Virus record (IMG/VR): IMGVR_UViG_2737471861_000021
DNA: 27,857 bases
From: a virus
Taxonomy: Duplodnaviria > Heunggongvirae > Uroviricota > Caudoviricetes
Strand: one strand, 5' to 3'
Shown: piece after piece, positions 13,790 to 27,857 of the stretch
How positions within the stretch are numbered: position 1 is the first letter of the stretch
How the letters are laid out: each line of letters begins with the position of its first letter
The notes under the pieces: model-generated
The model's database searches: none
What the model saw: the letters and a program-made list of their open reading frames with translations, nothing else
Told to the model about the DNA's origin: nothing
Made by a program: the position numbers and the translations under genes

Positions 13790-16303
13790 ATGCCAGTTGT
13801 ACCAACAACATCGGGCCGTCAGGTTCAGAGCAGGGGGATTTCGACGCAGGGATTCTCATCGTTTCAGACGCCAAATGTCGGTGATGTACTTGGCGATGTT
13901 GCAGAGCAATATGCAGGTATTATTGCGCAGGCAAAACAGCGTGCGAATGTTGCTATGGCTCAGGATGCTTCTCTTAGCTTAAGCCAGATAAGCAGCGATC
14001 TGCTGAATAACCCTGAAACAGGTTTGCTTAACCTGAAAGGGAAAAATGCTATTGGAAAAGGTCAGGAGTATACGCAGCAGTTTGATGCCCAGGTCGAGCA
14101 ACTGGCTATGTCGCTGCCGGATGAACAGGCTCGTAATGCTTTCATGCAGCAGGCGCAGCAGCAGCGCATTCAGTTCACTACGCAGGCCGGGCGGCACGAG
14201 ATAGGGCAAATAAATGCCTACGAAGAAGGCCAGTTTCAGGCGACGCTGCTGAACAATGGTAAAAATGCCGCAGCATTGTATGGCGACAACGCCGCATACG
14301 TATTGGCTAATAAGCAAACTTTCCAGCAAATTGAGGATTACGGCATTGCGCATGGCTGGAGCGACGAGCAAATCCAGGCCAAGAAAATCGAGTTTAAAGA
14401 GAAGGTTGCTGATGCAGCATTGTCCCAGTGGTCGGCAAACAATGCGACCGCATTCATCCAAAGTAATGGCGAGTTAAGTGATACTGCTGCTGGAGCTCGC
14501 CGTGCTGTAGCAGATAGTGATTCTTCCGAGCGTGCCCGTGGCATACGCAACAATAACCCAGGAAATCTCGAATACAGCAAAACCAATCCGTGGGTAGGCC
14601 AGACCGGTGATGATGGTCGATTTGCTAAATTCGAAACACCTGAACACGGGATTCGTGCATTAGGGCGGAACCTGATGTCGTATCAGAGGCAGGGTATTGA
14701 TACCGTCAGCGAGATAATTAATCGCTGGGCACCGCCTACTGATAAAAATGACACTATGTCGTATATCAAAGCAGTGTGCGAACAACTTGGCGTTTCTGCT
14801 GATGAGCCTCTCGATGCATCTAATCCTGATACCCTGAAGGCGCTTTGTGCAGCCATTATCCATCATGAGAACGGTAGCCAGCCATACAGTGATCAGCAGT
14901 TAACTGCTGGTGTCAGTGCAGCACTTGGTTTATCAACAATTCCAACCAACACCAAACGCTATACCGGTAATGCAGCATTCGATGCGGCATCTCCTGAGGC
15001 GCAGGCAAGTTTTATGCGACAGGCGGATCAACTGCGTCGGCAGCAGCAGGCTGAATATAAAACGATGATTGACAGCCAAGTTCGCGATGCGACATCTGCG
15101 TATATGCGTGGCGTTGAATTTCCTAACCCACCTGGTGAGGCTGATTTTATTGCAGCTTATGGAGTCAGAGAAGGAAACCTGCGATATACCGAGTTCAGAA
15201 ATACGCAAATCGCCGGACAGTATATAGGCTCTTTCCGCAACATGCCGACAAGCAGCATTACAGCATATGTTGAGCAATTACGCCCGGATACTGGTGAGAC
15301 AGGGGAGGGGTATGCGGCACGCGCAGCTCTTTATGACAACGTTGTTTCGGCTGCAAATCAGGTGATAAAGCAGCGGCAATCGGATCCTGTGCAGTTCTCT
15401 CTTGCCGCCGGACAGGCAAAGCCTATCGACATGAGCAATAAGGATAACTTTGGACAGAGCGTTGCCTTGCGTGCCGCTCAGGTCAGTGACCTTGCTAAGT
15501 CATATGGCACTCCACTGACGTTCTTTTCCAAAGACGAGGCCAATCAGATCGGTGTTTTCTTTCGTGATGCTCCAGTTTCCCAACAGGCAGCATATCTCGA
15601 TACCATCAGGCAGAGCACTGGTGGTGGGCAGGTGTATATGTCAGCACTACAGCAGATCAGTGCCAACGCTCCATCTGCTGCCGTTGCCGGGATACTGATG
15701 GATAAGCCAGGTGGTATTTTGGCAGAAAAAAACTGGTTTAATCCGGATGTTTCCGTGTCTCCTGAAACCGCTGCGCAGACAATTCTTGCTGGCGCGGCGG
15801 CTCGTAAAGGTACTGATGATGCGAAAGGTATTCCGATGCCTAAAGATGCTGATCTTCGCCTTGAGTTTTCTGACATGGTGAAGGATGCATTTGCTGGTGA
15901 CGCTCAGGGGGCATCAATGGCATACGAGATCGCAAAGGATTATTACGCTGGTGTGATGGCGAAAAAAGGCGTGGTATCAGGCGAAATTGACAATGATGTC
16001 TGGAAACAGGCTGTTAACGTAGCTACAGGTGGCGTGCATGACTATAACGGAATGGGGAATGTCCTTTTGCCGTGGGGAATGTCTGCGGAGCAATTCGATA
16101 AGCAGGTTAATCAGGCTTGGAATGAACAAGTTGTCGGCTCCGGGATAAAAACACCGCCTGGTCAGTATGGTTTGCAAAGTTACGGCGATAGTCAGTACCT
16201 GGTGAAACTTGGTACTGGTTATCTGCTGAAAGATGATGGTTCTCCCGTTGTTCTTAATCTGACACAGAAGCGTCAGAGATTCTCCGGAGATATTCCGCAA
16301 TGA
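13790..16303 (+). CDS. Internal core / ejection protein
   Basis: 837-aa ORF in the core-protein block. Carries a conserved-looking 'GIRNNNPGNLEYSKTNPWVGQ...GRFAKFETPEHGIRA' segment of unassigned function. Confidence 0.6.
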   Translation: MPVVPTTSGRQVQSRGISTQGFSSFQTPNVGDVLGDVAEQYAGIIAQAKQRANVAMAQDASLSLSQISSDLLNNPETGLLNLKGKNAIGKGQEYTQQFDAQVEQLAMSLPDEQARNAFMQQAQQQRIQFTTQAGRHEIGQINAYEEGQFQATLLNNGKNAAALYGDNAAYVLANKQTFQQIEDYGIAHGWSDEQIQAKKIEFKEKVADAALSQWSANNATAFIQSNGELSDTAAGARRAVADSDSSERARGIRNNNPGNLEYSKTNPWVGQTGDDGRFAKFETPEHGIRALGRNLMSYQRQGIDTVSEIINRWAPPTDKNDTMSYIKAVCEQLGVSADEPLDASNPDTLKALCAAIIHHENGSQPYSDQQLTAGVSAALGLSTIPTNTKRYTGNAAFDAASPEAQASFMRQADQLRRQQQAEYKTMIDSQVRDATSAYMRGVEFPNPPGEADFIAAYGVREGNLRYTEFRNTQIAGQYIGSFRNMPTSSITAYVEQLRPDTGETGEGYAARAALYDNVVSAANQVIKQRQSDPVQFSLAAGQAKPIDMSNKDNFGQSVALRAAQVSDLAKSYGTPLTFFSKDEANQIGVFFRDAPVSQQAAYLDTIRQSTGGGQVYMSALQQISANAPSAAVAGILMDKPGGILAEKNWFNPDVSVSPETAAQTILAGAAARKGTDDAKGIPMPKDADLRLEFSDMVKDAFAGDAQGASMAYEIAKDYYAGVMAKKGVVSGEIDNDVWKQAVNVATGGVHDYNGMGNVLLPWGMSAEQFDKQVNQAWNEQVVGSGIKTPPGQYGLQSYGDSQYLVKLGTGYLLKDDGSPVVLNLTQKRQRFSGDIPQ

Positions 16304-18102
16304 GTTACTTTGGCCTTAATCCAGTAAACCAGAATCAGCAGCTTGACGAAGCAGCATCAAATCCAGCTGGCTTTAACAGCGATGTTGGTTTTTTCGACAA
16401 TGCTGTAGGAGCGGCATTGTCTGGTTTGTACTCCGGGCTGGTGGCAAAGCCAGATCAGTTGCTATGGGCAGGGATGGATAAAATCGTATCCCCGATTGCT
16501 CAGTTTGTTAACGAAAACACCTCGCTCAATGACACTTCAGTTTCATACATTGCCGAGCAGAGAAAACTAGCAGAGCAGCAGGTTAAGCGGCTGACGCCTG
16601 ATGCCGCGACAACCGGAACCGCCGGGCAGGTCCTTTATGGGTTGTTCGATATGGGAGGGCAGGCTGTTGTCGGTACAACGCTCGGTGGTCCGGTCGGAGG
16701 TGCTGCGGCGGTAACTTCTCTACAGGGTTTTTCTGAGTTTGAACGGCTGACAGCACAGGGTGTTGATTTCAGGACGGCGCAGGAAGCGGGATTAGTGCAG
16801 GGTATTACTGCTGGTGCCGGAACACTGATCCCTATGAGCCTCGGGTTACGTGCTGGTGGTGCGCTGGCGGAAGGTGTGGCGGCCCAGCTTGCGCGGACGG
16901 GTGAAAGTTCAGTGCGACGCGCCGCAGCAACAGCAGTACGTGCAACGCCAGATATTGCCTATGCCGCAGGTACAAATATTGCGTTCGGTATGGCACAGCG
17001 TGGGCTTACTGCAAAAACGCTTCGTGATGGTGGCTATAGCGAAATGGCTAACCAGTATGATGTGTTGGATCGACAGGCAATTGCTATTGATGCTGTTCTT
17101 GGGGTGGCGTTTGGTGGTGTCGGCAGATTTATGAACTCTCGCGGCGAGTCTACAAGCGCACCAAATTTTTCACCAGTTGATGTTGATGCTGCACTGGCGG
17201 CGAATGCCGCTCATCATGCTGAAATTGATATTGCGCCCGGCGTGCCGATCAACGTGCTTTCGCGCAATTCTCACATTCAGGCTCTGCGAAAAGCTATGTC
17301 TGATGTTAGCCAGGGGAGACCTGTAGACGTTGCCAGCATTGTTGAGTCTGCATCTTTCAGTGAAATTCCTGGGCGCAAGAGTCTGCTGTCTCAGGCAGTT
17401 AATGAGGCTCTGTCATCTGTAGATGATGGAGTAACGGCGCGCGCTATAGAAAATCGGTTGCTTGAAGAACAGGCCGCGCAGCTTTTGCCGCGTGGCGATA
17501 GACAGGTTTACCAGTCTGAAATCGCTAATAGCCAACGAATTATTGAAAATCTCACTGAACAGCGCGCACAAATTCTTGCAGAAGAGCCAACCGGTAGCGG
17601 TAAAGCTTTGTCTCGTGCTCGATCAGATAAACAGGTCAGACTTCGCGATATTGACCAACGAATCCGGCAGGCACAAGAGCGCCTGGAATTTTCCCGTAAC
17701 GCGTTGGCACCGCATGAGCCTGGCGGTCAGTTTTTTGAAGCTCGAGCAGAACTGGCACGACGACAGCAGGCAGAAAGTGAACTTAATGCTCAGGCTGTTT
17801 CATTCTATAAAACAGCAGAGGTCAGGACGCCAGACGAAGTAGCTCCTTTTGAGCCCGGTAAGATATTGCAACAGACAGAACAAAAAATGATGGCAGATCC
17901 GGCAGGAGATATTGATCTGCGTATAGCTGAAGACTCGCTGCTTGAATCACCTGACATGATAATCACCGTGCTGGATGATGATGGTAATCCACAATCGCGC
18001 AGTGCGCGTGAAGTACTGGATGAAGCGAACAGGGAAAGTGAGCAGGCAATACAGGATTCCAGCCTGTTTGATGTCGCTGTGGCGTGTTTCTTGAGGGGTT
18101 AA
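16300..18102 (+). CDS. Internal core / ejection protein
   Basis: 600-aa ORF with an ATGA overlap to the upstream gene; Gly/Ala-rich with a predicted hydrophobic stretch. Confidence 0.6.
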   Translation: MSYFGLNPVNQNQQLDEAASNPAGFNSDVGFFDNAVGAALSGLYSGLVAKPDQLLWAGMDKIVSPIAQFVNENTSLNDTSVSYIAEQRKLAEQQVKRLTPDAATTGTAGQVLYGLFDMGGQAVVGTTLGGPVGGAAAVTSLQGFSEFERLTAQGVDFRTAQEAGLVQGITAGAGTLIPMSLGLRAGGALAEGVAAQLARTGESSVRRAAATAVRATPDIAYAAGTNIAFGMAQRGLTAKTLRDGGYSEMANQYDVLDRQAIAIDAVLGVAFGGVGRFMNSRGESTSAPNFSPVDVDAALAANAAHHAEIDIAPGVPINVLSRNSHIQALRKAMSDVSQGRPVDVASIVESASFSEIPGRKSLLSQAVNEALSSVDDGVTARAIENRLLEEQAAQLLPRGDRQVYQSEIANSQRIIENLTEQRAQILAEEPTGSGKALSRARSDKQVRLRDIDQRIRQAQERLEFSRNALAPHEPGGQFFEARAELARRQQAESELNAQAVSFYKTAEVRTPDEVAPFEPGKILQQTEQKMMADPAGDIDLRIAEDSLLESPDMIITVLDDDGNPQSRSAREVLDEANRESEQAIQDSSLFDVAVACFLRG

Positions 18103-18107
18103 ATTAA

Positions 18108-20582
18108 ATGAGACAGGAATGTATACAGGCGGTTCAGCAGGCGGCGCAGCGCATGTTAACGGCGCGAGAAATACAGAACATTGAAGACCGCATTTATCGA
18201 AATATGCGCTCCATTGCTCGTGATGACCCGATGTCGTGGCGACAACTTTCCGAATCAGATCGGCTATATCGAGCAGCACAATTGGCATCTGAAGAATTAC
18301 AGCGAGAAGCGGCATTAAAGAAACGTCGTGTGGCTCTCACTATAGCCGCGCGTCAGAGATTGGATAAATTTATCAATAGCTATCAAGGGGCTGATGGGAA
18401 ACTTGGCGCTCTTAACCGTACTATAGCTTTTAATGCAGACGGTAAATCTAATTTCCTCTCTGTTGAATCCAGAACAAAAGCCACCCGTGATTATGCATTG
18501 AGTCAATTGCAGGAGGCATTCGAAGCAGTTGATCCTCGCTTTTTTGGTCTGTTTGAAGATGAAGCGGGCGTACGTGACCTGGTATATGAAATGCGGGGGC
18601 AAAATACTGGCAATGCTAAAGCAAGAAAAGGTGCTAAGGCGTGGAGAGAAGTTACAGAGCTGCTGCGCCGCCGGTTTAATGATGCTGGTGGGGACATTGG
18701 CTATCTCGAAAACTGGGGGATCCCTCAACATCATTCTATGGAAAAGGTTGGGGCGGTATCAAAGGATAAGTGGGTTAACGATGTTATAGGTAAGCTGGAT
18801 CGCAAATATTATACCCGAGCCGATGGACAACTGATGAACGATGCCGAGTTGTCTGCATTTCTTGGAGAGGCTTATAACACGATCGCTACTGGTGGGCTGA
18901 ATAAGCTTACTGATACCGGAATGCGAATTTCCGGCGCACGTGCTAACCGTGGTAATGCATCACGACAGATACATTTCAAAGATGCTGATTCCTATCTCCA
19001 ATATCAACAACTTTATGGCGATCGCTCTCTATGGGAAATCATGGTCGGTCACCTGGAAGGTATCAGTAAAGATATTGCTCTGGTGGAAACATATGGTCCA
19101 AACCCCGATCATGTTTTCCGCTCCCTTCTTGATCAGGTTAAGGCAGAAACGGCAACAGCTAACCCGAGTAAAACCGGTAAAGTCGAGCGGCTGGCGAACA
19201 ACACAGAGAATCTGTACAACTTTATTTCCGGAAAGACACAGCCTGTAGCGAATCCGCACATCGCGCGATGGTCTGACAATATCCGCAACTGGCTGGTTGC
19301 CAGCAGACTCGGATCCGCGTTGCTGTCATCGTTCTCTGATCTTGGAACCATGTATCTGTCTGCGAAGGTGACCAACCTTCCGATGAACCAGTTATTCCGC
19401 AACCAGCTTGAAGCTATGGACCCAACGAACCGTACTGAGCTTGCGCGGGCGCGCCGCGCTGGTCTGGCGATGGAATCTCTACTTGGCAGCGTTAACCGCT
19501 GGGCGATGGATAATATGGGGCCGTCTGTGTCTCGTTGGGCTGCAACGGCGGTAATGCGTGCCAGTGGGCTTACAGCATGGTCAGATGCGCACAAGCGCGC
19601 CTATGGCGTAACCATGATGGGAAGCCTGGGAGAAGTAGTGTCACGGACACCAGACCTTCGTAGCCTCGATGACTCTGATTTTCGTATCCTGAAAAGCAAA
19701 GGGATTACTGACACAGACTGGAGCGTATGGAAGTTGGCGCAACAGGAGGACTGGGGGAACGGTAATAATACGATGCTGACACCGGAAAGCATTATGCGTA
19801 TCCCTGATTCAGCAGTTAAACATCTTGGTGAGCCTGAACGCGTGAAATTTGAGGCAATGCGTAAACTGCTCGGTGCCGTAACTGAAGAAGTTGATATGGC
19901 TGTTATTACACCGGGAGCACGTGAGCAACTGATAACCGGTTCTGGTATTCAGCGTGGAACATGGAAAGGTGAATTAACGAGAAGTGTTTTCCTGTTTAAA
20001 TCGTTCCCTATCTCGGTTGTTATGCGTCACTGGTCACGCGCTATGGGTATGCCGTCTGCTGGTGGGCGTGCGGCATATATTGCGACGTTTATTGCCAGTA
20101 CGACCATTCTTGGCGCTTTGTCGCAGCAACTTAACGACCTTGCGTCTGGTCGTAATCCTCGAGAGATGACAGGAGAAGATGCCGCAAAATTCTGGCTTGG
20201 TGCTCTACTGAAAGGTGGTGGCCTTGGCCTTTACGGTGATTTTTTGTTGTCAGATCACACGAGGTACGGAAGCGGTGCGCTGGCATCAATGCTTGGTCCG
20301 GTAGCCGGTCTGGTTGATGACGTAGTGAAGATAGCTCAGGGCATACCACTAAATGCTGTGGAAGGGAAGAACGAGCAGACTGGTGGTGATCTGGTGAAAC
20401 TTGGGAAAGGGCTGATGCCAGGTGCGAATCTCTGGTACTTGAAGGCAGCTCTTGATCACATGATCTTTAACCAGATGCAGGAGTATTTTTCACCAGGCTA
20501 TTTGCGTAAAATGGAGCAACGTTCGAAGAAAGAGTTTAACCAGACATACTGGTGGCGACCACAGGATGTCACTCCGCAATAA
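18108..20582 (+). CDS. Large internal core / ejection protein
   Basis: 824-aa ORF, last large gene of the core block, with hydrophobic segments near the C-terminus. Confidence 0.6.
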   Translation: MRQECIQAVQQAAQRMLTAREIQNIEDRIYRNMRSIARDDPMSWRQLSESDRLYRAAQLASEELQREAALKKRRVALTIAARQRLDKFINSYQGADGKLGALNRTIAFNADGKSNFLSVESRTKATRDYALSQLQEAFEAVDPRFFGLFEDEAGVRDLVYEMRGQNTGNAKARKGAKAWREVTELLRRRFNDAGGDIGYLENWGIPQHHSMEKVGAVSKDKWVNDVIGKLDRKYYTRADGQLMNDAELSAFLGEAYNTIATGGLNKLTDTGMRISGARANRGNASRQIHFKDADSYLQYQQLYGDRSLWEIMVGHLEGISKDIALVETYGPNPDHVFRSLLDQVKAETATANPSKTGKVERLANNTENLYNFISGKTQPVANPHIARWSDNIRNWLVASRLGSALLSSFSDLGTMYLSAKVTNLPMNQLFRNQLEAMDPTNRTELARARRAGLAMESLLGSVNRWAMDNMGPSVSRWAATAVMRASGLTAWSDAHKRAYGVTMMGSLGEVVSRTPDLRSLDDSDFRILKSKGITDTDWSVWKLAQQEDWGNGNNTMLTPESIMRIPDSAVKHLGEPERVKFEAMRKLLGAVTEEVDMAVITPGAREQLITGSGIQRGTWKGELTRSVFLFKSFPISVVMRHWSRAMGMPSAGGRAAYIATFIASTTILGALSQQLNDLASGRNPREMTGEDAAKFWLGALLKGGGLGLYGDFLLSDHTRYGSGALASMLGPVAGLVDDVVKIAQGIPLNAVEGKNEQTGGDLVKLGKGLMPGANLWYLKAALDHMIFNQMQEYFSPGYLRKMEQRSKKEFNQTYWWRPQDVTPQ

Positions 20583-20591
20583 GGATGAGAA

Positions 20592-20732
20592 ATGATTGCT
20601 TTTATTCTTGTTGTATTTGTGCTTGTTGCCCTTGGCGTTATGAATCGTAAATGTATCATTGAAGACGGTGAATTTGCTGTAGCAGTTGTTTTGATATTAT
20701 CTGGTGTAGCAGGGTACATAGGTTTGTCATAG
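20592..20732 (+). CDS. Small hydrophobic membrane protein (46 aa)
   Basis: Not in the ORF track (too short). ATG at 20592, nine nt after the upstream stop with an AAGGATGAG RBS. Translation MIAFILVVFVLVALGVMNRKCIIEDGEFAVAVVLILSGVAGYIGLS has two predicted TM segments. Confidence 0.4.
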   Translation: MIAFILVVFVLVALGVMNRKCIIEDGEFAVAVVLILSGVAGYIGLS

Positions 20733-20738
20733 CTTGAG

Positions 20739-20752
20739 TGTGACATGTCACA
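20739..20752. repeat. Palindrome TGTGACATGTCACA, copy 3 of 3 (perfect 14-bp palindrome)
   Basis: Seen directly; lies between the small membrane ORF stop and the GC hairpin. Confidence 0.7.
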
Positions 20753-20768
20753 GGCCGCTTTCGCGGCC
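20753..20768. terminator. GC-rich hairpin between convergent transcription units
   Basis: GGCCGC-TTTC-GCGGCC stem-loop between the + strand core operon and the minus-strand small gene; U-tract is weak. Confidence 0.35.
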
Positions 20769-20775
20769 CTTAAAT

Positions 20776-21033
20776 TTACCGGATTTGTTTTCGTAATTGT
20801 TCGGCACAATAGTCGAGATGTGTTTGCAGATCCTGCATAGACATCTGTGAGCTGGTGACGTAGTTAATCAGTGCAGTCAGTTCGGCAAGTGGGCCATCGA
20901 CATTAAATCCATCCTTATCGAGATCCCGGAGTAATTTCATCAAGTGCGATCCCTCCACCAGTGACCTGACGCCTCCCGGCGTGTGAATCCTTTCGGTAAA
21001 TCCGTCTTCCAGTGGATAGTGATACTGCTGCAT
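20776..21033 (-). CDS. Small SOS-regulated protein of unknown function (85 aa), reverse-oriented inside the tail module
   Basis: Internal ATG of track ORF 20776..21156 with a GGAGAA RBS. A LexA box lies 22-37 nt upstream of this start. Translation MQQYHYPLEDGFTERIHTPGGVRSLVEGSHLMKLLRDLDKDGFNVDGPLAELTALINYVTSSQMSMQDLQTHLDYCAEQLRKQIR. Confidence 0.5.
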   Translation of the reverse strand: MQQYHYPLEDGFTERIHTPGGVRSLVEGSHLMKLLRDLDKDGFNVDGPLAELTALINYVTSSQMSMQDLQTHLDYCAEQLRKQIR

Positions 21034-21054
21034 CTTATCTTCTCCATGCAATAA

Positions 21055-21070
21055 CTGTATATTTATACAG
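21055..21070 (-). promoter_or_regulatory. LexA (SOS) box
   Basis: CTGTATATTTATACAG is a perfect CTGT-N8-ACAG with an AT-rich spacer. The extended 20-mer AACTGTATATTTATACAGTA closely matches the E. coli consensus TACTGTATATATATACAGTA. It sits just upstream of the minus-strand small gene. Confidence 0.7.
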
Positions 21071-21228
21071 TAGCAAATAATTTGTTTGCTATCCAGCACG
21101 TTTTGCAAATTACCCGAAAGGTAATATCTATTCATATTCACAGTCTTTCTATCCATATGTGGTTTTTCAGGTAATAGAATAACCAGATATGCGGCGCAAC
21201 GGGTGCTGCGACTATCTGGAGATTTAAC

Positions 21229-23418
21229 ATGACGGTCTCAACCGAAGTTGACCACAACGAATACACAGGCAATGGCGTTACGACTTCATTCCCTTATACC
21301 TTTAGGGTTTTCAATGAATCTGATCTGGTAGTGCAGGTGGTTGACCTTGACGAAAATATCGCTGTACTGGCTCTTGATACTGATTACACTGTCACTGGGG
21401 CTGGAGGATATAACGGCGGTAATGTAATTCTGTCGAAGGCGTTAGCTAACGGTTACCAGATTTCTATATCACGAGAGCTCCCGGTTACGCAGGAAACTGA
21501 TTTGCGTAATCAGGGTAAGTTCTTTGCAGAAGTGCATGAGGATGCTTTTGATAAGCTAACGATGCTGATCCAGCAGGTTCGAAGTTGGTTCAGTTTGGCT
21601 CTGCGTAAGCCATCATTTGTTGCTAATTATTATGATGCCTTGAACAATTACATCCGCAATTTACGTGATCCTTCAAGACCTCAAGATGCAGCCACTAAAA
21701 ATTATGTTGATACACAGCTCAGTACTAGCCTCAGGTGCACATTGCGCGTTCAGGAGCAGATTCCGATACTTCCTGACGCTGCCTCCCGTGAAAACAAGAT
21801 GCTTGCTTTCGATAACAATGGTAACCCCATTGTTGTACTTCCTCCATCTGGCTCTGCTTCTGATGTATTGATCGAATTAGCTAAACCAGCAGGCGCAGGG
21901 ATGATTGGTACCAAATCAGGAGATACTGTTCAAGATACGTTGGATGAACTCAATCATAAATCAGGTTATGATAATTCTGATATTTCTTTGTATGGATATA
22001 TATATGGTAGTGGAGAGGACGCTAAGCCTTATGTTCTTGCAGCCATAGGTAAAACAGGGGTTGCGCATATCAGCGGTGATACCACATTATCAAGATTTGA
22101 CTGGCCCCAAGGTGCAAGGATTACCGGAAAAGCAACGATCACATACACAAGGCTACCAAACGTTCCATGTGAACTTGATAGTGAAATACCTGTAAACCAT
22201 TCACTAATGAAAGCTGTATATGTTCATGAGGTATTTGATATCTGCGATATGTTACAAATAAAAACAGCAGGATTTAATACTTTAATTCATTATGGTCAGG
22301 CATGGCGTGATGGTGGAGACATGGAAAAAGCATGTAACGCAGCGGAAGCAATAGGATTGCGTTTGATTTTGGGCGGGCCAATATACGGACAGACAGATAC
22401 GCCATCTTCAGAACTGGACGATAGAGATTGTGTTATAGGATATTATCTATTTGATGAACCTCAAAACCATTCTATATCGGCTTCTGCCCAGGCTACTAGA
22501 ATAAACGCGTTCAAGGCTTTCACTAAAAAGTCGCTATGTATAGCTGATAATGGCATCTTTGCTTTTGATTCACCTACTATTCCGTCAGGGTACGATGGTG
22601 TTGGCTACGATTACATATTCATTGACGCTTACGCATACGCTAATCGAGATTTCGCCACGAATAAAAGAGCGGCAGTGCTATGTTGGGCGGAAATGAAATA
22701 CAAATCCCCAAATTCTAAGCTGATCCCTTGCTTGGGTATGTTTAGCGAACCTTCTGAGTTTTCAGATAAGTCAAAGCAAATATCTTTTGCAAGGAAATTC
22801 TTTGGGATGGGGCCCGGTGATTATGCCGCCTTTGCTTGGGAGAGCAATCTTATTATTGGCACATTCAAAGACATAACTAATGATTCTGACTTTTATAATG
22901 AAGTTTTAAGTTATAATTGCATAACAGAACAAAAACCATACAAAACAGATGTTTATGTGTTTTACACAGATAGAATGGGTGGGGCTATGCAGTTGTACAA
23001 TGACAAGTACAGTTCTGCCGATGTCACACCATTCCAGACTATCAATGCTGGGAGCGCACAAGGTGAGCGTAACACCACATTCAAAAAGGGTGGTATCGCG
23101 GCAAGAAACACCGGAGGCGTGTTTGCTACGAGGATGAAGAACCACGGGTACGTGGCTGTTGAGCTGTATTATTTTAACGGTGCAGATACCGCAAATACTA
23201 CAGCATCAATAACAACTTGCATTGACGATTTTTACACAAACACCCCGCAGCTTACGTTCACGCTCTCAACTACACAAAACGCCTGGATAAACTCTGTGGA
23301 AACAACACCTAATCTCGGTGTTGGTATAAAGATTATCCCAAGCCAATCTTACCAATATAGGTGGAAATTCATATATGGTGGCATAGTTGATTGCTCATGG
23401 AGAGGTGATTCATTTTAA
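21229..23418 (+). CDS. Tailspike / receptor-binding protein
   Basis: 729-aa ORF with a GGAGA RBS. N-terminus 'MTVSTEVDHNEYTGNGVTTSFPYTFRVF...' matches what I recall of the epsilon15-family tailspike head-binding domain. The distal two-thirds is AT-rich and divergent. Confidence 0.8.
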   Translation: MTVSTEVDHNEYTGNGVTTSFPYTFRVFNESDLVVQVVDLDENIAVLALDTDYTVTGAGGYNGGNVILSKALANGYQISISRELPVTQETDLRNQGKFFAEVHEDAFDKLTMLIQQVRSWFSLALRKPSFVANYYDALNNYIRNLRDPSRPQDAATKNYVDTQLSTSLRCTLRVQEQIPILPDAASRENKMLAFDNNGNPIVVLPPSGSASDVLIELAKPAGAGMIGTKSGDTVQDTLDELNHKSGYDNSDISLYGYIYGSGEDAKPYVLAAIGKTGVAHISGDTTLSRFDWPQGARITGKATITYTRLPNVPCELDSEIPVNHSLMKAVYVHEVFDICDMLQIKTAGFNTLIHYGQAWRDGGDMEKACNAAEAIGLRLILGGPIYGQTDTPSSELDDRDCVIGYYLFDEPQNHSISASAQATRINAFKAFTKKSLCIADNGIFAFDSPTIPSGYDGVGYDYIFIDAYAYANRDFATNKRAAVLCWAEMKYKSPNSKLIPCLGMFSEPSEFSDKSKQISFARKFFGMGPGDYAAFAWESNLIIGTFKDITNDSDFYNEVLSYNCITEQKPYKTDVYVFYTDRMGGAMQLYNDKYSSADVTPFQTINAGSAQGERNTTFKKGGIAARNTGGVFATRMKNHGYVAVELYYFNGADTANTTASITTCIDDFYTNTPQLTFTLSTTQNAWINSVETTPNLGVGIKIIPSQSYQYRWKFIYGGIVDCSWRGDSF

Positions 23419-23466
23419 ATGAAAGCGCATTAATCACTACATCCTTCGTGATTAATGCGCTAAAAT

Positions 23467-24585
23467 TTATAATTTTATTCCTTTTCCGTACTTAATTAGT
23501 GGTCGTTCAATAAAAGAAAATGTAAGTGATGATAAAACACACAGTGCTACGAATAGAATTGTTATCATTGGGAGTGAGATATTTAGGTTGTTAATATCAT
23601 ATTTATCTTTAATAAAGGCAAATGAAGGATAGAAAACAACCCCTTGTAAAAGGTAAATGCTGTAAGAGCACTCCCCCAAACGAGTAAATCCCTTTATATT
23701 CAATATACCAAACAAGCTTGCGCCTTTAGCCACGCAAAGCATAAACACTGTGACTATTATCCACGGTCTAGTGCTGTTAAGTGATGGATTTAACAGTACG
23801 AATATAGTCACAGATGCTAACAGCATGAGGTCAGATGTTTTTTTTGATAATGAAATTCTGCATGATAACTCCTTAGATAGGATACCACAGGCGAAAGCAG
23901 AATAATACCAATATGATGCATCTGTAAATGATGGTAGAAAATACATACAAACAAACATAATACCAATTGAAGCTTCAAGTGGCTTGGAACGTAAAAAATA
24001 AATGATTGGTAAAGAGAAGTAGAATCCCCATTCCCACTTTATTGTCCATGTTACACCAGACAACACCAATACAGAATTATTGAATCCATTTATATTAGGT
24101 TTTATGTCAAATACACTTGCGTCAAACCATTTCAACAAATCATCCAAACTAATATTGTTGTGGTTTGTTGACATTAAAATAATATATGATACAGCAATGA
24201 ATGATGAAAGATATGTCATCGGTACGATTCTAAAAAATCTATCTTTATATAAGTTTATCCAGTCAATATTTTTTGATTTACGAATCTTTCCCCAGAAAAG
24301 AAAAGCTGTAATTGAAAAGAAAATCGCTACGCCAAATTTCCCTATTGAATAAATAAAATCAGAATGAGTAGTCCATTTATTTATTGTAAAATAATTAATA
24401 AAATAGTCTGAGTGATGGAACACAACCATGGATGCAAGAATATATCTTAGACCATCAAGATTCCGCTCCCTTGAGTAATCATGATCTTTCCCGTCTATGT
24501 AAGAAAAAACATTAGAGCTAAATAAAAGACCACATATAAAAATTGAACATCCAACCCACAAGTATATGATAACAGAGTCAGTCAT
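23467..24585 (-). CDS. Integral-membrane acyltransferase (acyltransferase family 3; O-antigen acetyltransferase-like)
   Basis: 372-aa polytopic membrane protein with 'LDGLRYILASMVVFHH' near the N-terminus and 'SYSIYLLQGVVFYP...FIERP' near the C-terminus, both typical of Acyltransferase_3 (Oac/OafA-like). Strongly AT-rich relative to the rest of the prophage. Confidence 0.75.
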   Translation of the reverse strand: MTDSVIIYLWVGCSIFICGLLFSSNVFSYIDGKDHDYSRERNLDGLRYILASMVVFHHSDYFINYFTINKWTTHSDFIYSIGKFGVAIFFSITAFLFWGKIRKSKNIDWINLYKDRFFRIVPMTYLSSFIAVSYIILMSTNHNNISLDDLLKWFDASVFDIKPNINGFNNSVLVLSGVTWTIKWEWGFYFSLPIIYFLRSKPLEASIGIMFVCMYFLPSFTDASYWYYSAFACGILSKELSCRISLSKKTSDLMLLASVTIFVLLNPSLNSTRPWIIVTVFMLCVAKGASLFGILNIKGFTRLGECSYSIYLLQGVVFYPSFAFIKDKYDINNLNISLPMITILFVALCVLSSLTFSFIERPLIKYGKGIKL

Positions 24586-24777
24586 TTTTAGTTTCCATAT
24601 TATATTCCAGTATTAGCTGCATGCAGAACCATTTTCCTATGGACGGCAGCATTGTATCACCCAGGGGGTAATTTCGGTAGGGGTATTCTTAGGTAATACA
24701 TATCCATATATGGTTTATTGTGTATGATGTACTCACCAACTAAGGGGGTTCTTTATGCACATTAAACGGTGGTCATA

Positions 24778-25182
24778 ATGGCGCAAATGTTAACCACGGA
24801 AACTATAAATCAGGGTCTTAGCATGAGCGCGCTGATGTCTGTGTTCGCTGGAGTACCGCCAGAGGTGGCTTTAGGAGCTTTGGCTGGGGCGGTAATTTTT
24901 GTTACCTCAGCGGTAGAGTATCACATCCGTCGCCGGGTGCTCCTGTCGATGCTCAGCTTTCTTTGCGGCCTTCTCTTTTACAAACCAGCAGCATCAATTC
25001 TTATCGGCATAGCCAGCCTGATCCCTACCATCACGCAGGACTCTTTTGAAAAAGGGATTGTTTTCTCTGCAGGCGCATTCGTGTCAGCAATTGTCGCTGT
25101 GCGTATTGGTATATGGCTCTATCACCGTTCCGATAATCCACGCGAGTTAATTCCGGGGAGAAAAGACGATGGTAACGTATGA
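24778..25182 (+). CDS. Holin-like membrane protein (class I-like, 3-4 TM)
   Basis: ATG at 24778 (track ORF 24769..25182). Several hydrophobic segments and a charged C-terminus; first gene of the lysis cassette. Confidence 0.5.
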   Translation: MAQMLTTETINQGLSMSALMSVFAGVPPEVALGALAGAVIFVTSAVEYHIRRRVLLSMLSFLCGLLFYKPAASILIGIASLIPTITQDSFEKGIVFSAGAFVSAIVAVRIGIWLYHRSDNPRELIPGRKDDGNV

Positions 25183-25477
25183 GTTTTTTTTGCTTATCAC
25201 CAATGCAGTTATTTGCACTGGCATAGCAATTCGCGTTGTCACATTCCGGCGTAACGGCTCTCAACACCGAAGGTGGGGAGGATGGCTTGCTTATTTCCTG
25301 ATTGTTGCTGCGGCCAGTATTCCTGTTCGTGTCGCCTATGCAATCTGGTTACGTACGCCAATGGCTGTGGATTTATCTGAGGTCATTATCAACGCTGTCA
25401 TGCTAACTGCGGTTATTAAAACGCGCGGTAACGTCGTTCAAATTTTCAAAGTATCGAGGTCTAAACATGGAGATTAA
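25169..25477 (+). CDS. Second small membrane protein of the lysis cassette (holin or antiholin-like)
   Basis: 102 aa with about three TM segments; overlaps the upstream gene and precedes the endolysin. Confidence 0.45.
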
Positions 25478-26096
25478 ACAATTCCAGCGAGCTGCTGGTA
25501 TCAGTGAGTCACTGGCCGCACGCTGGTTCTCGCATATAACTTCTGCGATGAAAGAGTTTGGTATCAGCAAACCAGAAGATCAGGCTATGTTTATTGCTCA
25601 GGTCGGGCATGAGTCTGGAGGCTTCACCCGGTTGCAGGAGAATTTCAACTACAGCGTCAGCGGACTGGCTAACTTTGTTCGGGCTGGGCGTCTCACTCAG
25701 GGACAGGCCAACGCATTGGGGCGACGCGCAGGCGAACCACCATTGCCACTTGAGCGCCAGCGCGCGATCGCAAATCTGGTATACAGCAAACGCATGGGGA
25801 ACAATGCCCCTGGTGATGGCTGGAATTACCGAGGGCGCGGACTTATCCAGATTACCGGTTTGAATAACTATCGTGATTGCGGAAACGGTCTGAAGGTTGA
25901 CCTGCTGGAGAGCCCTGAACTGCTGGCGCAGGACGAATATGCGGCTCGTAGCGCGGCGTGGTTCTTCGCCAGCAAAGGATGCATGAAGTATACCGGCGAT
26001 ATTGCACGTGTAACTCTGATTATCAATGGTGGCCGGAACGGCATCGACGACCGGCGAGCGCGGTACATCACTGCCAGTAAGGTGCTGGCGGTATGA
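25467..26096 (+). CDS. Endolysin, glycoside hydrolase family 19 (chitinase-like) type
   Basis: 209 aa. '[12 protein letters not shown]', '[12 protein letters not shown]' and '[12 protein letters not shown]' are GH19 endolysin signatures; from memory it is very close to the Salmonella phage SPN1S endolysin. Confidence 0.9.
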
Positions 26097-26590
26097 TCTG
26101 GGCATTCGTAAAAGCATACTGGAAACAGTTGCTTATCGTGGCAGTGCTTGCTGTTCTGGTCATATCAGGAGTGGTTGCCTGGAATATACACGGCAGTCGC
26201 CAGTACGATGCCGGGTATGCTCAGGCGAAGGAAGATCAGAAACAGGCTGATGATAAGTTAAGGTCACAGCGTGAGCAGGAGAAAACACAAATTGAACGTG
26301 AAGCACAATCCCGTATCGATGCGGCGCGTGCTGATGCTGAGTATGCTAATTCCGCTGCTGACAGCATGCGCGCCGAGCTTGACAAAACCAGGCGGCTCGC
26401 CGAACACTATACCGGATCTTTCCCCCCTGGCACGCCAGCCAGCAAGGTCATCGGTGTGCTCGCCGACATGCTTGAAGAAAGCAACCGAGTTTACAACGCA
26501 ACAGCAGCTGAGGCTGAAAAGTATCGTATCGCAGGGGAATTCTGCGAGCAGCAATACGATTCACTGAAGAAGCAAAAATCGTGGCACTGA
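26093..26590 (+). CDS. Rz: i-spanin (Rz-like)
   Basis: 165 aa with an N-terminal TM helix ([18 protein letters not shown]) and a charged coiled-coil-like periplasmic domain; directly follows the endolysin with an ATGA overlap. Confidence 0.7.
26319..26567 (+). CDS. Rz1: o-spanin lipoprotein (Rz1-like), embedded in the +1 frame of Rz
   Basis: Internal ATG of track ORF 26271..26567. Signal peptide [17 protein letters not shown] with an LTAC lipobox, followed by a Pro-rich mature region. Lies entirely within Rz in a different frame. Confidence 0.6.
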   Translation: MRRVLMLSMLIPLLTACAPSLTKPGGSPNTIPDLSPLARQPARSSVCSPTCLKKATEFTTQQQLRLKSIVSQGNSASSNTIH

Positions 26591-26716
26591 TTTCCGGTGA
26601 CGGTATATAAAACGGTACGGGAAAAGTTGAGGTTTGTAAAAGTGTTATCACTCAATTGGTTATGGTTGTCGTAAATAATTGAGTGGGAATGATTTTAATC
26701 CCTGCACTATGAATGA

Positions 26717-26749
26717 ACAAAACCCTCTGTTACTACAGAGGGTTTTTTA
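26717..26749. terminator. Strong bidirectional rho-independent terminator
   Basis: AAAA-CCCTCTGT-tact-ACAGAGGG-TTTTTT between the lysis operon (+) and the convergent envelope genes (-). A second hairpin, CTTCAAG-N9-CTTGAAG, lies at 26751-26773. Confidence 0.65.
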
Positions 26750-26786
26750 TCTTCAAGAATCATAGGCTTGAAGTTACTAACATCGA

Positions 26787-27326
26787 TTAATTAAACCAGC
26801 TGTCCGATTTGTTCTCTTCTGCTTTGCCCACGCTTTTCATCAGATCGCGACCGCCTTCAGTCATATTTCTGTTGGCGTCAGCTTCAGATTGCACCACATC
26901 GGTTTGCGCAGCTTTGTGCTTCAGTTCCTGATCGATAAATTCGTTTTCTCGCTTAACGCGGGCTTCTTCTTTTGCCAGCGCCAGTTTTTGTTTCTGAATC
27001 TCTAAGCTGCGTAGCTCATCTTCATAACTTTGATCGCGTTTTTTGTCCGCAGAGGCTTCGGCGTCCAGTTTATCCTGACGAGCTTTCTTATTTGCCGCTG
27101 CCGTTGCCGCTCTTTTGTTAGCGGCGGCCTGGGCATTTGCGCGACGTTGCTTCTCTTGCTGGATTTCCCTGTTGCGCTCCGCGACCCATTCGTCATGCTG
27201 CCTTTGCTCTTCATTTTTACCTTGCTGTTCAGCTTCTGCTACAGCAGAGAGTTGATCCTGCAATGATGAGGCGATAGCCGGATAGCTTAAGGAGGCCAAG
27301 ATGGCGCAAAGAAAAACTTTCTTCAT
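26787..27326 (-). CDS. Secreted/periplasmic coiled-coil protein, function unknown
   Basis: 179 aa with a signal peptide (MKKVFLCAILASLSYPAIASS) and a highly charged Ala/Lys/Glu/Gln-rich helical remainder; RBS present. Confidence 0.6.
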   Translation of the reverse strand: MKKVFLCAILASLSYPAIASSLQDQLSAVAEAEQQGKNEEQRQHDEWVAERNREIQQEKQRRANAQAAANKRAATAAANKKARQDKLDAEASADKKRDQSYEDELRSLEIQKQKLALAKEEARVKRENEFIDQELKHKAAQTDVVQSEADANRNMTEGGRDLMKSVGKAEENKSDSWFN

Positions 27327-27341
27327 GACTCCTCCTGATTA

Positions 27342-27857
27342 TTAGCTCTTTTCAGGACATTTAGTATTTGGCTGAATACGCGTTTCGTTATACGTTGTGG
27401 TAATAACAACGGCTAAACCTGTCGTAAACTGGCACTCTTTACCCACCTGGGTAGAGGTATACACTTTGGTGCCTTCCTTATATGTTAAAGAAACACCTTC
27501 CACTAAGGTTTTATCATTCACCATAGAACCCACTGCCGCGCCTACAGCTCCGCCGCCAACTGCCCCTGCCGTCGTTCCGGAATTGCTGCCAGAACCGACG
27601 TTGTGGCCGATAACACCGCCAGCGACTGCGCCAATAAGCGCGCCGAAGGCTTGTGCGTTCCGTTTATTTTGGGAGTTGTCTACGGCAACTTTTGCGGGAA
27701 GAATGGAAATAATATTAACGGTTTTAGTTTCTTGTTTGGTATTCAGTTGATCGGTTTGATAAACATCGGCGGCATGATCGTCAGCATTTGACTGGCATCC
27801 TGCCAGAGTGAATGACGCTAACATTGCCACAGGCAGAAGACATTTTTTAAATTTCAT
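27342..27857 (-). CDS. Outer-membrane lipoprotein with a glycine-zipper domain (YcfJ/SlyB/17-kDa-antigen-like)
   Basis: 171 aa. Signal peptide plus lipobox (LAGC) and a Gly-zipper segment 'GALIGAVAGGVIGHNVGSG...GGGAVGAAVGS' resembling YcfJ/SlyB-type lipoproteins (recollection). Its start codon is the last triplet of the window. Confidence 0.65.
   Translation of the reverse strand: MKFKKCLLPVAMLASFTLAGCQSNADDHAADVYQTDQLNTKQETKTVNIISILPAKVAVDNSQNKRNAQAFGALIGAVAGGVIGHNVGSGSNSGTTAGAVGGGAVGAAVGSMVNDKTLVEGVSLTYKEGTKVYTSTQVGKECQFTTGLAVVITTTYNETRIQPNTKCPEKS

What the first reader, a model, noticed from the sequence alone, without database searches (positions are those of the whole stretch)
23467..24768. 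AT-rich O-antigen-type acyltransferase transcribed divergently from the lysis cassette (serotype-conversion candidate)
A family-3 acyltransferase directly downstream of the tailspike is the classic position for a lysogenic-conversion O-acetyltransferase, which alters the receptor and excludes superinfecting phage; phiV10 has such a gene as I recall. Its strongly AT-rich composition suggests recent acquisition from a low-GC donor. The 183-bp divergent intergenic region (24586-24768) probably holds its lysogen-expressed promoter.
Basis: partly seen in the sequence, partly recalled or inferred. Interest (0 to 1): 0.5.

Follow-up and report, generated by a model that had tools for sequence, protein, structure and literature searches.

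The report
Prophage O-antigen acyltransferase beside tailspike
This is an intact membrane acyltransferase gene carried by an epsilon15/phiV10-like E. coli prophage in the slot where such phages keep the genes that alter the host's surface sugar, so it is an ordinary but uncharacterised new example of a well-known phage trick.

Summary
Window 23467-24585 (- strand) is an intact 372-aa ORF that hits Pfam PF01757 (Acyl_transf_3) at E 5.6e-23. Its GC is 32% against about 50% for the phage backbone. It lies tail-to-tail with the tailspike gene and head-to-head with the holin gene.

The window is the right end of a Uetakevirus-type prophage next to E. coli yfgI. In this genus the same slot holds the proven O-acetyltransferase of phiV10 and the O-antigen polymerase and inhibitor genes of epsilon15.

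The window gene is not the phiV10 orthologue (BLASTP not significant). It belongs to the OacB (Shigella phage Sf101) lineage at about 29% identity. It keeps the R-X10-H and RXXR motifs, and its model resembles the transmembrane acyl-CoA transferases HGSNAT and GWT1.

Relatives in viral contigs sit immediately 3' of a tail gene in 33 of 33 classifiable cases.

Most likely it O-acetylates the O-antigen that the adjacent tailspike recognises, causing seroconversion and blocking superinfection. That function is inferred, not shown.

Two side claims are weak. AT-richness is a property of the whole gene class, so it does not show recent acquisition. The promoter is only a candidate, a conserved extended -10 at 24651-24659.

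Verdict: new member of a known kind, modest interest.

The parts
23467..24585 (-). Acyltransferase-3 (AT3-only) gene, 372 aa, intact. Key residues are R47...H58 (R-X10-H), V86-A-I-F-F-S-I-T-A-F95 and R116-F-F-R119 (RXXR).
23424..23461 (.). Perfect 14-bp inverted repeat with a 10-nt loop between the converging tailspike and acyltransferase stop codons. It is a candidate bidirectional transcription terminator.
   Evidence: RNA fold -22.4 kcal/mol with z -7.5 on the + strand, and -23.0 kcal/mol with z -5.7 on the - strand. Inverted repeat I1. The Sf6 and epsilon15 records annotate a terminator at the same inter-gene position.
24586..24777 (.). Divergent intergenic region between the acyltransferase ATG and the holin ATG. 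24586-24654 is specific to this cargo. 24655-24703 is shared with phiV10. From about 24701 onwards it is the Uetakevirus backbone block upstream of the holin.
   Evidence: Match boundaries to phiV10 and to empty-slot prophages. Alignment A3.
24651..24659 (-). Candidate extended -10 promoter element TGATACAAT for the acyltransferase, 65 nt upstream of the ATG and preceded by the conserved box GAAATTACCC.
   Evidence: Own scan. An element lies at the aligned position in phiV10 (TGATATTAT) and epsilon15 (TGGTAAAAT), and a -10-like TATATT in JML285 and C6. It is absent from three empty-slot prophages and from a prophage whose cargo is co-directional. Not validated; the -35 is poor.
24599..24604 (-). 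Perfect TATAAT hexamer only 13 nt from the ATG, with TCTGCA 17 nt upstream. It is an alternative, less likely promoter because it would give a nearly leaderless mRNA.
   Evidence: Sequence. Own scan.
21229..23418 (+). Tailspike, 729 aa. It has a Uetakevirus N-terminal adaptor and a C-terminal receptor-binding domain with a glycosidase-like TIM barrel and a beta-sandwich. It is the presumed functional partner whose receptor the acyltransferase would modify.
24778..25182 (+). First gene of the lysis cassette (Phage_holin_8), transcribed divergently from the acyltransferase.
   Evidence: Pfam PF16931 at E 1.3e-12. PHROG 198. RefSeq homologues are annotated as 134 aa.
23942..23957 (-). Two adjacent tetranucleotide duplications in the coding strand, (TGTT)2 and (TGTA)2. 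Other E. coli isolates carry a -4 or a +4 frameshift allele here.
   Evidence: The -4 allele P0076 is listed in 62 blocks of the collection.
23838..23845 (-). A8 run in the coding strand (codons 247-249). The frameshifted allele P0082 diverges from the intact protein just after this run; a slip here is inferred from the protein sequence and was not checked at the DNA level.

Best explanation
The gene encodes a stand-alone (AT3-only) integral-membrane acyltransferase carried as lysogenic-conversion cargo by a Uetakevirus (epsilon15/phiV10-like) prophage integrated next to yfgI in E. coli.

Proposed mechanism:
- The gene is transcribed leftward from its own promoter in the divergent intergenic region, independently of the rightward late and lysis genes, so it can be made in the lysogen.
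- The protein sits in the inner membrane and takes an acyl group, most likely acetyl from cytoplasmic acetyl-CoA, at the conserved R47/H58 and R116/R119 sites.
- It passes the group across the membrane and esterifies a sugar hydroxyl of the O-antigen repeat unit on the periplasmic side, before the O-antigen is ligated to lipid A-core.
- The acetylated O-antigen is no longer bound or cleaved by the glycosidase-type tailspike encoded immediately upstream. The lysogen then changes serological character and resists superinfection by the same and related phages.

Shown here: the gene is intact, it belongs to the family, its motifs and fold are as expected, it occupies the conversion slot, and relatives are linked to tail genes.

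Inferred: expression in the lysogen, the acetyl donor, O-antigen as the acceptor, the sugar and position modified, and exclusion.
For: 1. Family. Pfam PF01757 at 81.9 bits against a cut-off of 31 and the PHROG O-acetyltransferase family at E 2.8e-43. There is no SGNH domain.

2. Motifs named as essential in the AT3 review PMC9558356 are present and conserved across alignments A1 and A2.
   - R47-X10-H58.
   - R116-X-X-R119.
   - The V-x-x-F-F-x-I-T-A-F box, whose Thr is shared with the characterised OacB.

4. Slot. The Uetakevirus slot between the tail fibre (+) and the holin (+) holds conversion genes on the - strand.
   - phiV10 holds oac there. Its expression modifies the O157 antigen and abolishes phiV10 plaques (PMC11854483).
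   - epsilon15 holds the O-antigen polymerase and the alpha-polymerase inhibitor there.
   - Other E. coli prophages at yfgI hold 329-aa and 655-aa acyltransferases there.
   - Many relatives have the slot empty, so the gene is optional cargo.

5. Closest characterised homologue. It is Sf101 OacB at 29% identity over 348 residues, E 3.6e-36. OacB is also convergent with a tail protein gene.

6. Linkage to receptor-binding genes across phage types.
   - The 51% and 46% homologues are convergent with siphovirus-type tailspikes.
   - A 41% homologue lies next to a myovirus tail-fibre assembly gene.
   - Among 80 viral contigs with relatives, 33 have a recognisable tail gene, and in all 33 the acyltransferase lies directly 3' of it: 28 convergent and 5 co-directional.

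7. Alternative cargo behind the same receptor-binding domain. Tailspikes with 82-90% identical receptor-binding domains in P22-like prophages are followed in the same position by a gtrABC-type glucosylation cassette or by an AT3-SGNH acyltransferase. Both are O-antigen modifiers.

8. Own transcription unit. A strong hairpin lies downstream. A positionally conserved extended -10 lies upstream.
Against: - No experiment or expression data exist for this protein, and no paper mentions it.
- The acceptor glycan is unknown. I could not determine the O serogroup of the source strain, and I found no record of O-acetyl groups in the O156 antigen of the strains that carry the identical gene.
- The identical acyltransferase occurs with three diverged tailspike alleles of 729, 732 and 734 aa. 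Part of the receptor-binding domain is only 53-64% identical at the nucleotide level. Strict one-to-one matching of enzyme and tailspike is therefore not shown.
- Several frameshifted alleles circulate, and one is widespread. The function is therefore dispensable in at least some lineages.
- The canonical S-G of the FFxISG box is T-A here.
- The consensus scan found no sigma-70 promoter.
- Outside Enterobacteriaceae, family members at 41% identity or less have no consistent neighbours. Family membership alone therefore does not fix the substrate.
Confidence: 0.7

Rival explanations
1. The enzyme is active but acylates a different envelope glycan, such as a capsule (K antigen), enterobacterial common antigen, colanic acid or peptidoglycan. 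The tailspike would then target that glycan, or the two genes would not be functionally coupled.
For: - AT3 proteins modify many different glycans (review PMC9558356).
- Wider family members have no consistent genomic context.
- The tailspike specificity is unknown. Uetakevirus prophages at the same site can carry capsule-specific tailspikes such as endosialidase.
- The identical enzyme is paired with three tailspike alleles.
Against: - Every characterised phage AT3 in this position acts on O-antigen: Sf6 Oac, Sf101 OacB and phiV10 Oac.
- Related receptor-binding domains are paired with gtrABC-type cassettes. From general knowledge, the Gtr system modifies O-antigen.
- At least four of the five complete genomes with the gene are typed by an O antigen, O156:H25.
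Confidence: 0.12
2. The gene is silent or functionally decaying cargo. It would be an AT-rich moron that is not expressed in lysogens, or that no longer matches the host's O-antigen, and so has no phenotype in this strain.
For: - At least four independent disrupted alleles exist in E. coli, including a 4-nt deletion listed in 62 blocks of the collection.
- No consensus promoter was found.
- The tailspike next to an identical gene has been partly replaced by recombination, so the pair may be mismatched.
Against: - In this window the ORF is intact and all family-invariant residues are kept.
- The intact protein is by far the commonest form: 224 contigs for the exact sequence against 34 for the commonest truncated one.
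- The nucleotide sequence is about 100% conserved across strains from Germany and Japan.
- A positionally conserved -10 element and a terminator flank the gene.
Confidence: 0.1
3. The enzyme does modify the O-antigen, but its selected role is benefit to the host (antigenic variation, serum or immune evasion, gut colonisation) or defence against unrelated phages. Exclusion of its own phage type would not be the point. Alternatively it transfers an acyl group other than acetyl.
For: - O-antigen acetylation affects immunogenicity and virulence in other systems.
- The gene is found in persistent bovine STEC O156:H25 lineages.
- Some AT3 proteins transfer succinyl or longer acyl groups.
Against: - The tight and repeated linkage to receptor-binding genes in three phage morphotypes is best explained by coupling to the phage's own receptor.
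- phiV10 Oac has been shown to block phiV10 itself.
- These roles are not mutually exclusive with the main explanation.
Confidence: 0.08

Closest known systems
phiV10 Oac (YP_512280.1), O-acetyltransferase of Escherichia phage phiV10 (Uetakevirus)
   Same: It occupies the same genus backbone, slot and orientation: tail fibre (+), oac (-), holin (+). It is AT3-only with similar AT-richness (30.9% GC). It shares about 50 bp of upstream sequence, including the candidate extended -10. Its function is proven: it modifies the O157 antigen and blocks phiV10 infection.
   Different: It is not an orthologue. It has 338 aa against 372 aa, and pairwise BLASTP is not significant. The host antigen differs, and the tail fibre receptor-binding domains are unrelated.
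OacB of Shigella phage Sf101 (Lederbergvirus, P22-like)
   Same: It is the closest characterised homologue, at 29% identity over 348 residues with E 3.6e-36. It has the same extended N-terminus and the FFxIT variant of the conserved box. It is convergent with a tail protein gene and AT-rich.
   Different: Identity is only about 29%. The phage backbone differs, and the gene lies next to the integrase rather than the lysis genes. According to the AT3 review, its acceptor is a rhamnose residue of the S. flexneri O-antigen, which need not be present in this host.
epsilon15 serotype-conversion module (O-antigen polymerase gp21 and alpha-polymerase inhibitor gp22)
   Same: It has the same slot, strand and genus. 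The cargo is AT-rich (31.9% GC), with a terminator between it and the tail fibre and an extended -10 at the aligned position.
   Different: The biochemistry differs: it changes the polymerisation linkage and inhibits host enzymes rather than adding an acyl group.
Sf6 Oac (OacA), the best-studied AT3-only O-antigen acetylase
   Same: It is AT3-only, convergent with the tailspike, and has an annotated terminator and promoter around it. The RXXR motif shown to be essential in Oac is present here.
   Different: Pairwise similarity is not significant (E 4.5). It has 333 aa and lacks the N-terminal extra helix.
AT3-SGNH fused acyltransferases (OafA/OafB type)
   Different: The window protein has no SGNH domain, so it must complete the transfer alone or with an unknown partner.
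HGSNAT and GWT1 (eukaryotic transmembrane acyl-CoA transferases with solved structures)
   Different: Identity is only 11%. There was no sequence-level hit to any PDB chain, and the Foldseek match was not significant. The acceptors and biology differ.

Membership tests
Acyltransferase-3 (Pfam PF01757, AT3) | Profile match above the curated gathering score | tested here: met
   81.9 bits against a cut-off of 31, E 5.6e-23, covering 321 of 326 profile positions.
Acyltransferase-3 (Pfam PF01757, AT3) | R/K-X10-H motif in the first core transmembrane helix (review PMC9558356) | tested here: met
   R47 and H58 are exactly 10 residues apart. Both are invariant in A1 (11 sequences, including Oac, OacB and phiV10 Oac) and in A2 (25 sequences). 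They lie in model helix 41-68.
Acyltransferase-3 (Pfam PF01757, AT3) | [quoted passage not shown] | tested here: met
   R116-F-F-R119. R116 is invariant in both alignments. R119 is invariant in A2 and nearly invariant in A1.
Acyltransferase-3 (Pfam PF01757, AT3) | V-X-X-F-F-X-(I/V/L)-S-G-(F/W/Y) box | tested here: inconclusive
   The sequence is V86-A-I-F-F-S-I-T93-A94-F95, so S is replaced by T and G by A. The T is shared with the experimentally active OacB (FFMITGY), and T-A is shared with the nearest homologues. It is a clade variant whose functional effect is untested.
Acyltransferase-3 (Pfam PF01757, AT3) | Polytopic all-helical membrane fold of the transmembrane acyl-CoA transferase type | tested here: met
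   [not shown]
Acyltransferase-3 (Pfam PF01757, AT3) | Acyl-CoA-dependent O-acylation activity | not testable with these tools
   Requires biochemistry or LPS analysis.
Phage-encoded serotype-converting O-antigen acetyltransferases (Oac/OacB/phiV10 Oac type) | AT3-only architecture encoded by a temperate phage | tested here: met
   AT3 is the single Pfam domain and there is no SGNH domain. The gene lies in a Uetakevirus-like prophage at yfgI, with an exact copy in IMG/VR and in several E. coli genomes.
Phage-encoded serotype-converting O-antigen acetyltransferases (Oac/OacB/phiV10 Oac type) | Located directly 3' of the tailspike or tail fibre gene as a separate transcription unit | tested here: met
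   It is convergent with the tailspike, with 48 bp and a hairpin between the stops. Sf6, Sf101, phiV10 and epsilon15 have the same layout. All 33 classifiable viral relatives have it too.
Phage-encoded serotype-converting O-antigen acetyltransferases (Oac/OacB/phiV10 Oac type) | Significant sequence similarity to an experimentally characterised member | tested here: met
   OacB: 29% identity, E 3.6e-36, and tblastn E 5e-29. Similarity is not significant to phiV10 Oac or Sf6 Oac.
Phage-encoded serotype-converting O-antigen acetyltransferases (Oac/OacB/phiV10 Oac type) | Adds O-acetyl to the host O-antigen and changes serotype | not testable with these tools
   No data exist for this protein. 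I could not retrieve the acetylation status of the O156 antigen.
Phage-encoded serotype-converting O-antigen acetyltransferases (Oac/OacB/phiV10 Oac type) | Expression in the lysogen blocks adsorption of the cognate phage | not testable with these tools
   Shown for phiV10 Oac only.
AT3-SGNH fused O-antigen/peptidoglycan acetyltransferases (OafA, OafB, OatA) | C-terminal periplasmic SGNH domain fused to the AT3 domain | tested here: not met
   The protein ends at residue 372, right after the AT3 domain, and has no SGNH hit. The 595-aa AT3-SGNH gene next to a related tailspike provides the contrast.

The most novel reading that the evidence does not exclude
The slot behind the Uetakevirus tailspike may be a plug-in site. 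It would have a conserved leftward promoter segment (the GAAATTACC box plus an extended -10) and a terminator, behind which unrelated O-antigen-modifying genes are exchanged: at least three AT3 lineages, an AT3-SGNH gene and a polymerase.

In this lineage the acyltransferase has stayed 100% identical while the receptor-binding part of the adjacent tailspike has been replaced by recombination at least twice. The acyltransferase has also been switched off repeatedly by small frameshifts at short repeats.

That pattern would fit an ongoing arms race. Tailspikes would diversify to cope with, or escape, the acetylation installed by their own kind of prophage, and lysogens would toggle the modification.
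Probability: 0.15. Interest if true: 0.5.

Novelty: new member of a known kind. Interest (0 to 1): 0.3.

Why it matters
If the function is confirmed, this would be an uncharacterised O-antigen acetylase that alters the surface antigen of bovine Shiga-toxin-producing E. coli. The identical gene is in O156:H25 strains from Germany and Japan.

This is relevant to serotyping, to phage-based detection or therapy (lysogens would resist related phages), and to understanding how O-antigen sub-variants arise outside the O-antigen gene cluster.

It also adds a fourth or fifth cargo type to the conversion slot of epsilon15/phiV10-like phages. It links an OacB-like enzyme to a tailspike with a glycosidase-like TIM-barrel domain rather than the right-handed beta-helix that, to my knowledge, most tailspikes have.

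It does not challenge current concepts.

Tried and rejected
- NCBIfam gave no hit for either the acyltransferase or the tailspike.
- Rfam found nothing above gathering score in 23300-25000. The weak hits are just the terminator hairpin.
- The sigma-70 and terminator consensus scan found no - strand promoter in the intergenic region and missed the hairpin because of its 10-nt loop.
- I tried to learn whether the O156 antigen is O-acetylated.
  - The E. coli O-antigen review mentions only a pyruvylated galactose, and its supplements are not held.
  - Another paper gives two linkages only.
- I could not determine the O serogroup of the source assembly GCA_000819015.1 with these tools.
- A literature search on phage PE3-1, which has a 69% related tailspike domain, did not yield its host antigen.
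- A census of the neighbours of 60 family members in other bacterial species showed no consistent context. It therefore does not help to assign the substrate.
- A 13-nt direct repeat brackets the cargo (23367-23379 and 24702-24714). It is about what chance predicts, so I do not interpret it as an insertion scar.
- I rejected the idea that the gene is the phiV10 oac orthologue.
- I rejected the idea that low GC dates the acquisition.
Full report
**1. What is in the sequence**

- Window 23467-24585 on the - strand is an ATG-initiated ORF of 372 codons. With the base composition of this stretch, the chance that 372 codons stay open is about 1e-12.
- The protein matches Pfam PF01757 (Acyl_transf_3) over nearly the whole profile (E 5.6e-23, 81.9 bits against a cut-off of 31) and has no other domain.
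- It also matches the PHROG family annotated as O-acetyltransferase (E 2.8e-43).
- Its GC content is 32.1% (GC1 32%, GC2 35%, GC3 29%). The structural genes of the window have about 50% and the lysis genes 45-55%.
The one caveat is the holin start. Identical homologues are annotated from the in-frame ATG at 24778 rather than the GTG at 24769, which makes the intergenic region 192 bp rather than 183 bp.

**2. Context**

- The window is the right-hand part of a prophage of the epsilon15/phiV10 type (genus Uetakevirus).
  - The 824-aa virion protein, the N-terminal 240 residues of the tail fibre, the two holins, the GH19 endolysin and the Rz spanin are all shared with phiV10 and epsilon15.
  - From about 26580 the sequence is E. 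coli chromosome (yfgI, yfgH).
- Window 16229-27857 is 100% identical to contig JWZJ01000023.1 of E. coli assembly GCA_000819015.1, which is probably the source.
- About 9% of complete E. coli genomes (491 of 5426) carry this type of lysis cassette. All twelve prophages whose flanks I inspected lie at the same chromosomal site next to yfgI.
- Only 5 of 5426 complete genomes carry this acyltransferase. All five are bovine Shiga-toxin-producing strains. At least four are serotype O156:H25, from Germany and Japan.

**3. The slot**

In Uetakeviruses the interval between the tail fibre gene (+) and the holin gene (+) is the place for serotype-conversion cargo on the - strand.
- phiV10 has oac there. 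The record annotates it as acetylating the O-antigen and giving superinfection immunity. Published work states that expressing it modifies the O157 antigen and abolishes phiV10 plaques (PMC11854483).
- epsilon15 has the O-antigen polymerase and the alpha-polymerase inhibitor there.
- One relative carries a 46% identical acyltransferase in the same slot but co-directional with the tailspike and followed by its own terminator.
- Of six further prophages sampled, five have nothing in the slot and one has a small unknown gene.
- The gene is therefore optional cargo in a recognised conversion slot. P22-like phages Sf6 and Sf101 show the same tail-to-tail arrangement of tailspike and O-acetyltransferase.

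**4. Which acyltransferase it is**

- It is not the phiV10 gene. The two proteins give no significant BLASTP alignment. The same is true for Sf6 Oac and for the 329-aa type.
- The closest characterised relative is OacB of Shigella phage Sf101, at 29% identity over 348 residues (E 3.6e-36 pairwise, 5e-29 by tblastn).
- The exact protein is common in E. coli (224 contigs). The nearest different sequences are only 46-51% identical.
- The motifs that the AT3 review (PMC9558356) lists as essential are present.
  - R47-X10-H58 and R116-X-X-R119 are conserved in alignments with characterised and uncharacterised relatives.
  - The FFxISG box reads FFSITA. The Thr is shared with active OacB and the Ala with the nearest homologues, so I treat it as a clade variant rather than a defect.
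- An AlphaFold model built on 25 sequences is confident (pLDDT 89.3, pTM 0.88) and all-helical.
- No PDB chain matches by sequence, and Foldseek is not significant.

**5. Link to the receptor-binding protein**

- The association with tail genes goes well beyond this prophage.
  - The 51% and 46% homologues lie convergent with tailspikes of siphovirus-type prophages.
  - A 41% homologue in another Escherichia species lies next to a myovirus tail-fibre assembly gene.
  - Among 80 viral contigs encoding relatives, my small marker set recognised a tail gene next to the acyltransferase in 33. In all 33 the acyltransferase is immediately 3' of it: 28 convergent and 5 co-directional.
- The C-terminal 490 residues of the window's tailspike also occur fused to P22-type and PF18668-type N-termini.
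- In P22-like prophages with an 82-90% identical domain, the gene directly behind it is a gtrABC-like glucosylation cassette or an AT3-SGNH acyltransferase. These are alternative O-antigen modifiers in the same relative position.
- This is the best indirect evidence that the acceptor is the O-antigen recognised by this tailspike family.
- Family members from other bacterial species (41% identity or less) have no consistent neighbours.

**6. Transcription signals**

- Between the two stop codons lies a perfect 14-bp hairpin (23424-23461; -22.4 kcal/mol with z -7.5 on one strand, and -23.0 kcal/mol with z -5.7 on the other). The Sf6 and epsilon15 records annotate a terminator at the same position.
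- Upstream, the consensus scan finds no sigma-70 promoter on the - strand.
- My own relaxed scan finds two candidates.
  - A perfect TATAAT lies 13 nt from the ATG. This is too close for the weak GGAA ribosome-binding site to be transcribed.
  - An extended -10, TGATACAAT (24659 to 24651), lies 65 nt upstream.
- The second candidate is positionally conserved.
  - phiV10 has TGATATTAT and epsilon15 has TGGTAAAAT at the aligned position, each behind a shared GAAATTACC box.
  - JML285 and C6 have a -10-like TATATT there.
  - Three of the four empty-slot prophages tested, and the prophage with co-directional cargo, have no such element. The fourth (SF-468, with a 306-bp spacer) has two motif matches elsewhere in the spacer that I take to be chance.
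Expression in the lysogen is not shown.

**7. Composition**

Low GC is shared by every gene of this functional class that I measured.
  - phiV10 oac is at 30.9%, Sf101 oacB at 33.7%, and the epsilon15 polymerase gene at 31.9%.
  - The 41-51% identical homologues in enterobacterial prophages and chromosomes are at 33-38%.
  - Each of these genes is 10-18 points below its surroundings.
- The bias is seen at all three codon positions.
- It is therefore a long-standing property of these membrane-protein cargo genes. It does not date the acquisition, and no donor can be named.

**8. Features that complicate a simple story**

- The acyltransferase and the first lysis genes are about 100% identical between the window, the O156:H25 prophage and a third prophage type. 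The tailspikes differ (729, 734 and 732 aa).
  - Blocks at roughly 22250-22960 are only 53-64% identical at the nucleotide level, and blocks at 23160-23360 are 63-86% identical.
  - Recombination has therefore replaced part of the receptor-binding domain next to an unchanged acyltransferase.
  - Whether the three alleles see the same glycan is unknown.
- The 90% cluster of this protein contains several disrupted alleles.
  - A 4-nt deletion at a (TGTT)2 repeat is listed in 62 blocks of the collection.
  - A 4-nt insertion lies at the adjacent (TGTA)2 repeat.
  - One allele diverges from the intact protein just after an A8 run, which suggests a slip there; I did not check this at the DNA level.
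  - One allele is split near codon 100.
- The gene is intact in the window. These alleles show that the function can be lost, or perhaps toggled.

**9. Conclusion**

- The best-supported explanation (confidence about 0.7) is that this is a lysogenic-conversion O-antigen O-acyltransferase of the OacB lineage.
- It would be expressed from its own leftward promoter and would acetylate the O-antigen recognised by the adjacent glycosidase-type tailspike. That would change the serotype and exclude superinfecting phages.
- Family membership, motif integrity, fold, slot and linkage to tail genes are shown here. The donor, the acceptor, expression and exclusion are inferred from characterised relatives.
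- The rival explanations are another glycan acceptor (0.12), silent or decaying cargo (0.10), and a role other than self-exclusion or a different acyl group (0.08).
- It is a new member of a known kind, and interest is modest.

Noticed in passing
[not shown]
   Followed up: partly
window 23942-23957 and 23838-23845 (inside the acyltransferase gene): Other E. coli isolates carry frameshifted alleles at or near short repeats. These are -4 nt at (TGTT)2 (allele P0076, listed in 62 blocks of the collection), +4 nt at the adjacent (TGTA)2, an allele that diverges just after the A8 run, and a split near codon 100. This could be clonal decay or on/off switching.
   Followed up: partly
window 22250-23360 compared with L002, L097 and L003: The identical acyltransferase and lysis genes are joined to three tailspike alleles (729, 732 and 734 aa). 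These differ in blocks of 53-64% nucleotide identity, which indicates recombination breakpoints inside the tailspike gene.
   Followed up: partly
window 24704-24780: An almost invariant Uetakevirus block lies upstream of the holin. It contains the palindrome CCATATATGG (24704-24713) and a strong Shine-Dalgarno sequence AAGGGGG. A 7-codon mini-ORF follows (ATG 24755, MHIKRWS, TAA 24776-24778), and its stop overlaps the holin ATG at 24778. The epsilon15 record annotates this stretch as an RNase III processing site.
   Followed up: no
window 23367-23379 and 24702-24714: A 13-nt direct repeat (ATTCATATATGGT and ATCCATATATGGT, 12 of 13 matching) brackets the terminator, acyltransferase and promoter cargo. 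About one such repeat is expected by chance in this stretch, and the left copy lies in tailspike coding sequence.
   Followed up: no
window 26093-26590: The 3' half of the Rz spanin gene is only 38-57% identical to the allele in the otherwise near-identical O156:H25 prophage. The gene encodes 165 aa here against 160 aa there. It contains an embedded +1-frame ORF (26271-26567) with a lipobox (LLTAC), so this is a different Rz/Rz1 allele.
   Followed up: no
L008 8156-10066 (metagenome contig with the 51% homologue): The tailspike convergent with the closest non-identical homologue carries a SASA (sialate O-acetylesterase-like) domain. An esterase-type tailspike is thus paired with an acetyltransferase.
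   Followed up: no
L011 7001-8137 (E. coli prophage at yfgI): A 46% identical acyltransferase sits in the same slot but on the same strand as the tailspike. It is followed by its own hairpin terminator, and the candidate leftward extended -10 is absent. The divergent orientation is therefore not obligatory.
   Followed up: partly
window 20776-21156 (- strand): The listed ORF is 126 aa, but homologues are annotated as 85 aa (similar to epsilon15 gp19; PHROG 450, residues 42-126). The longer ORF start is probably not the real one.
   Followed up: no
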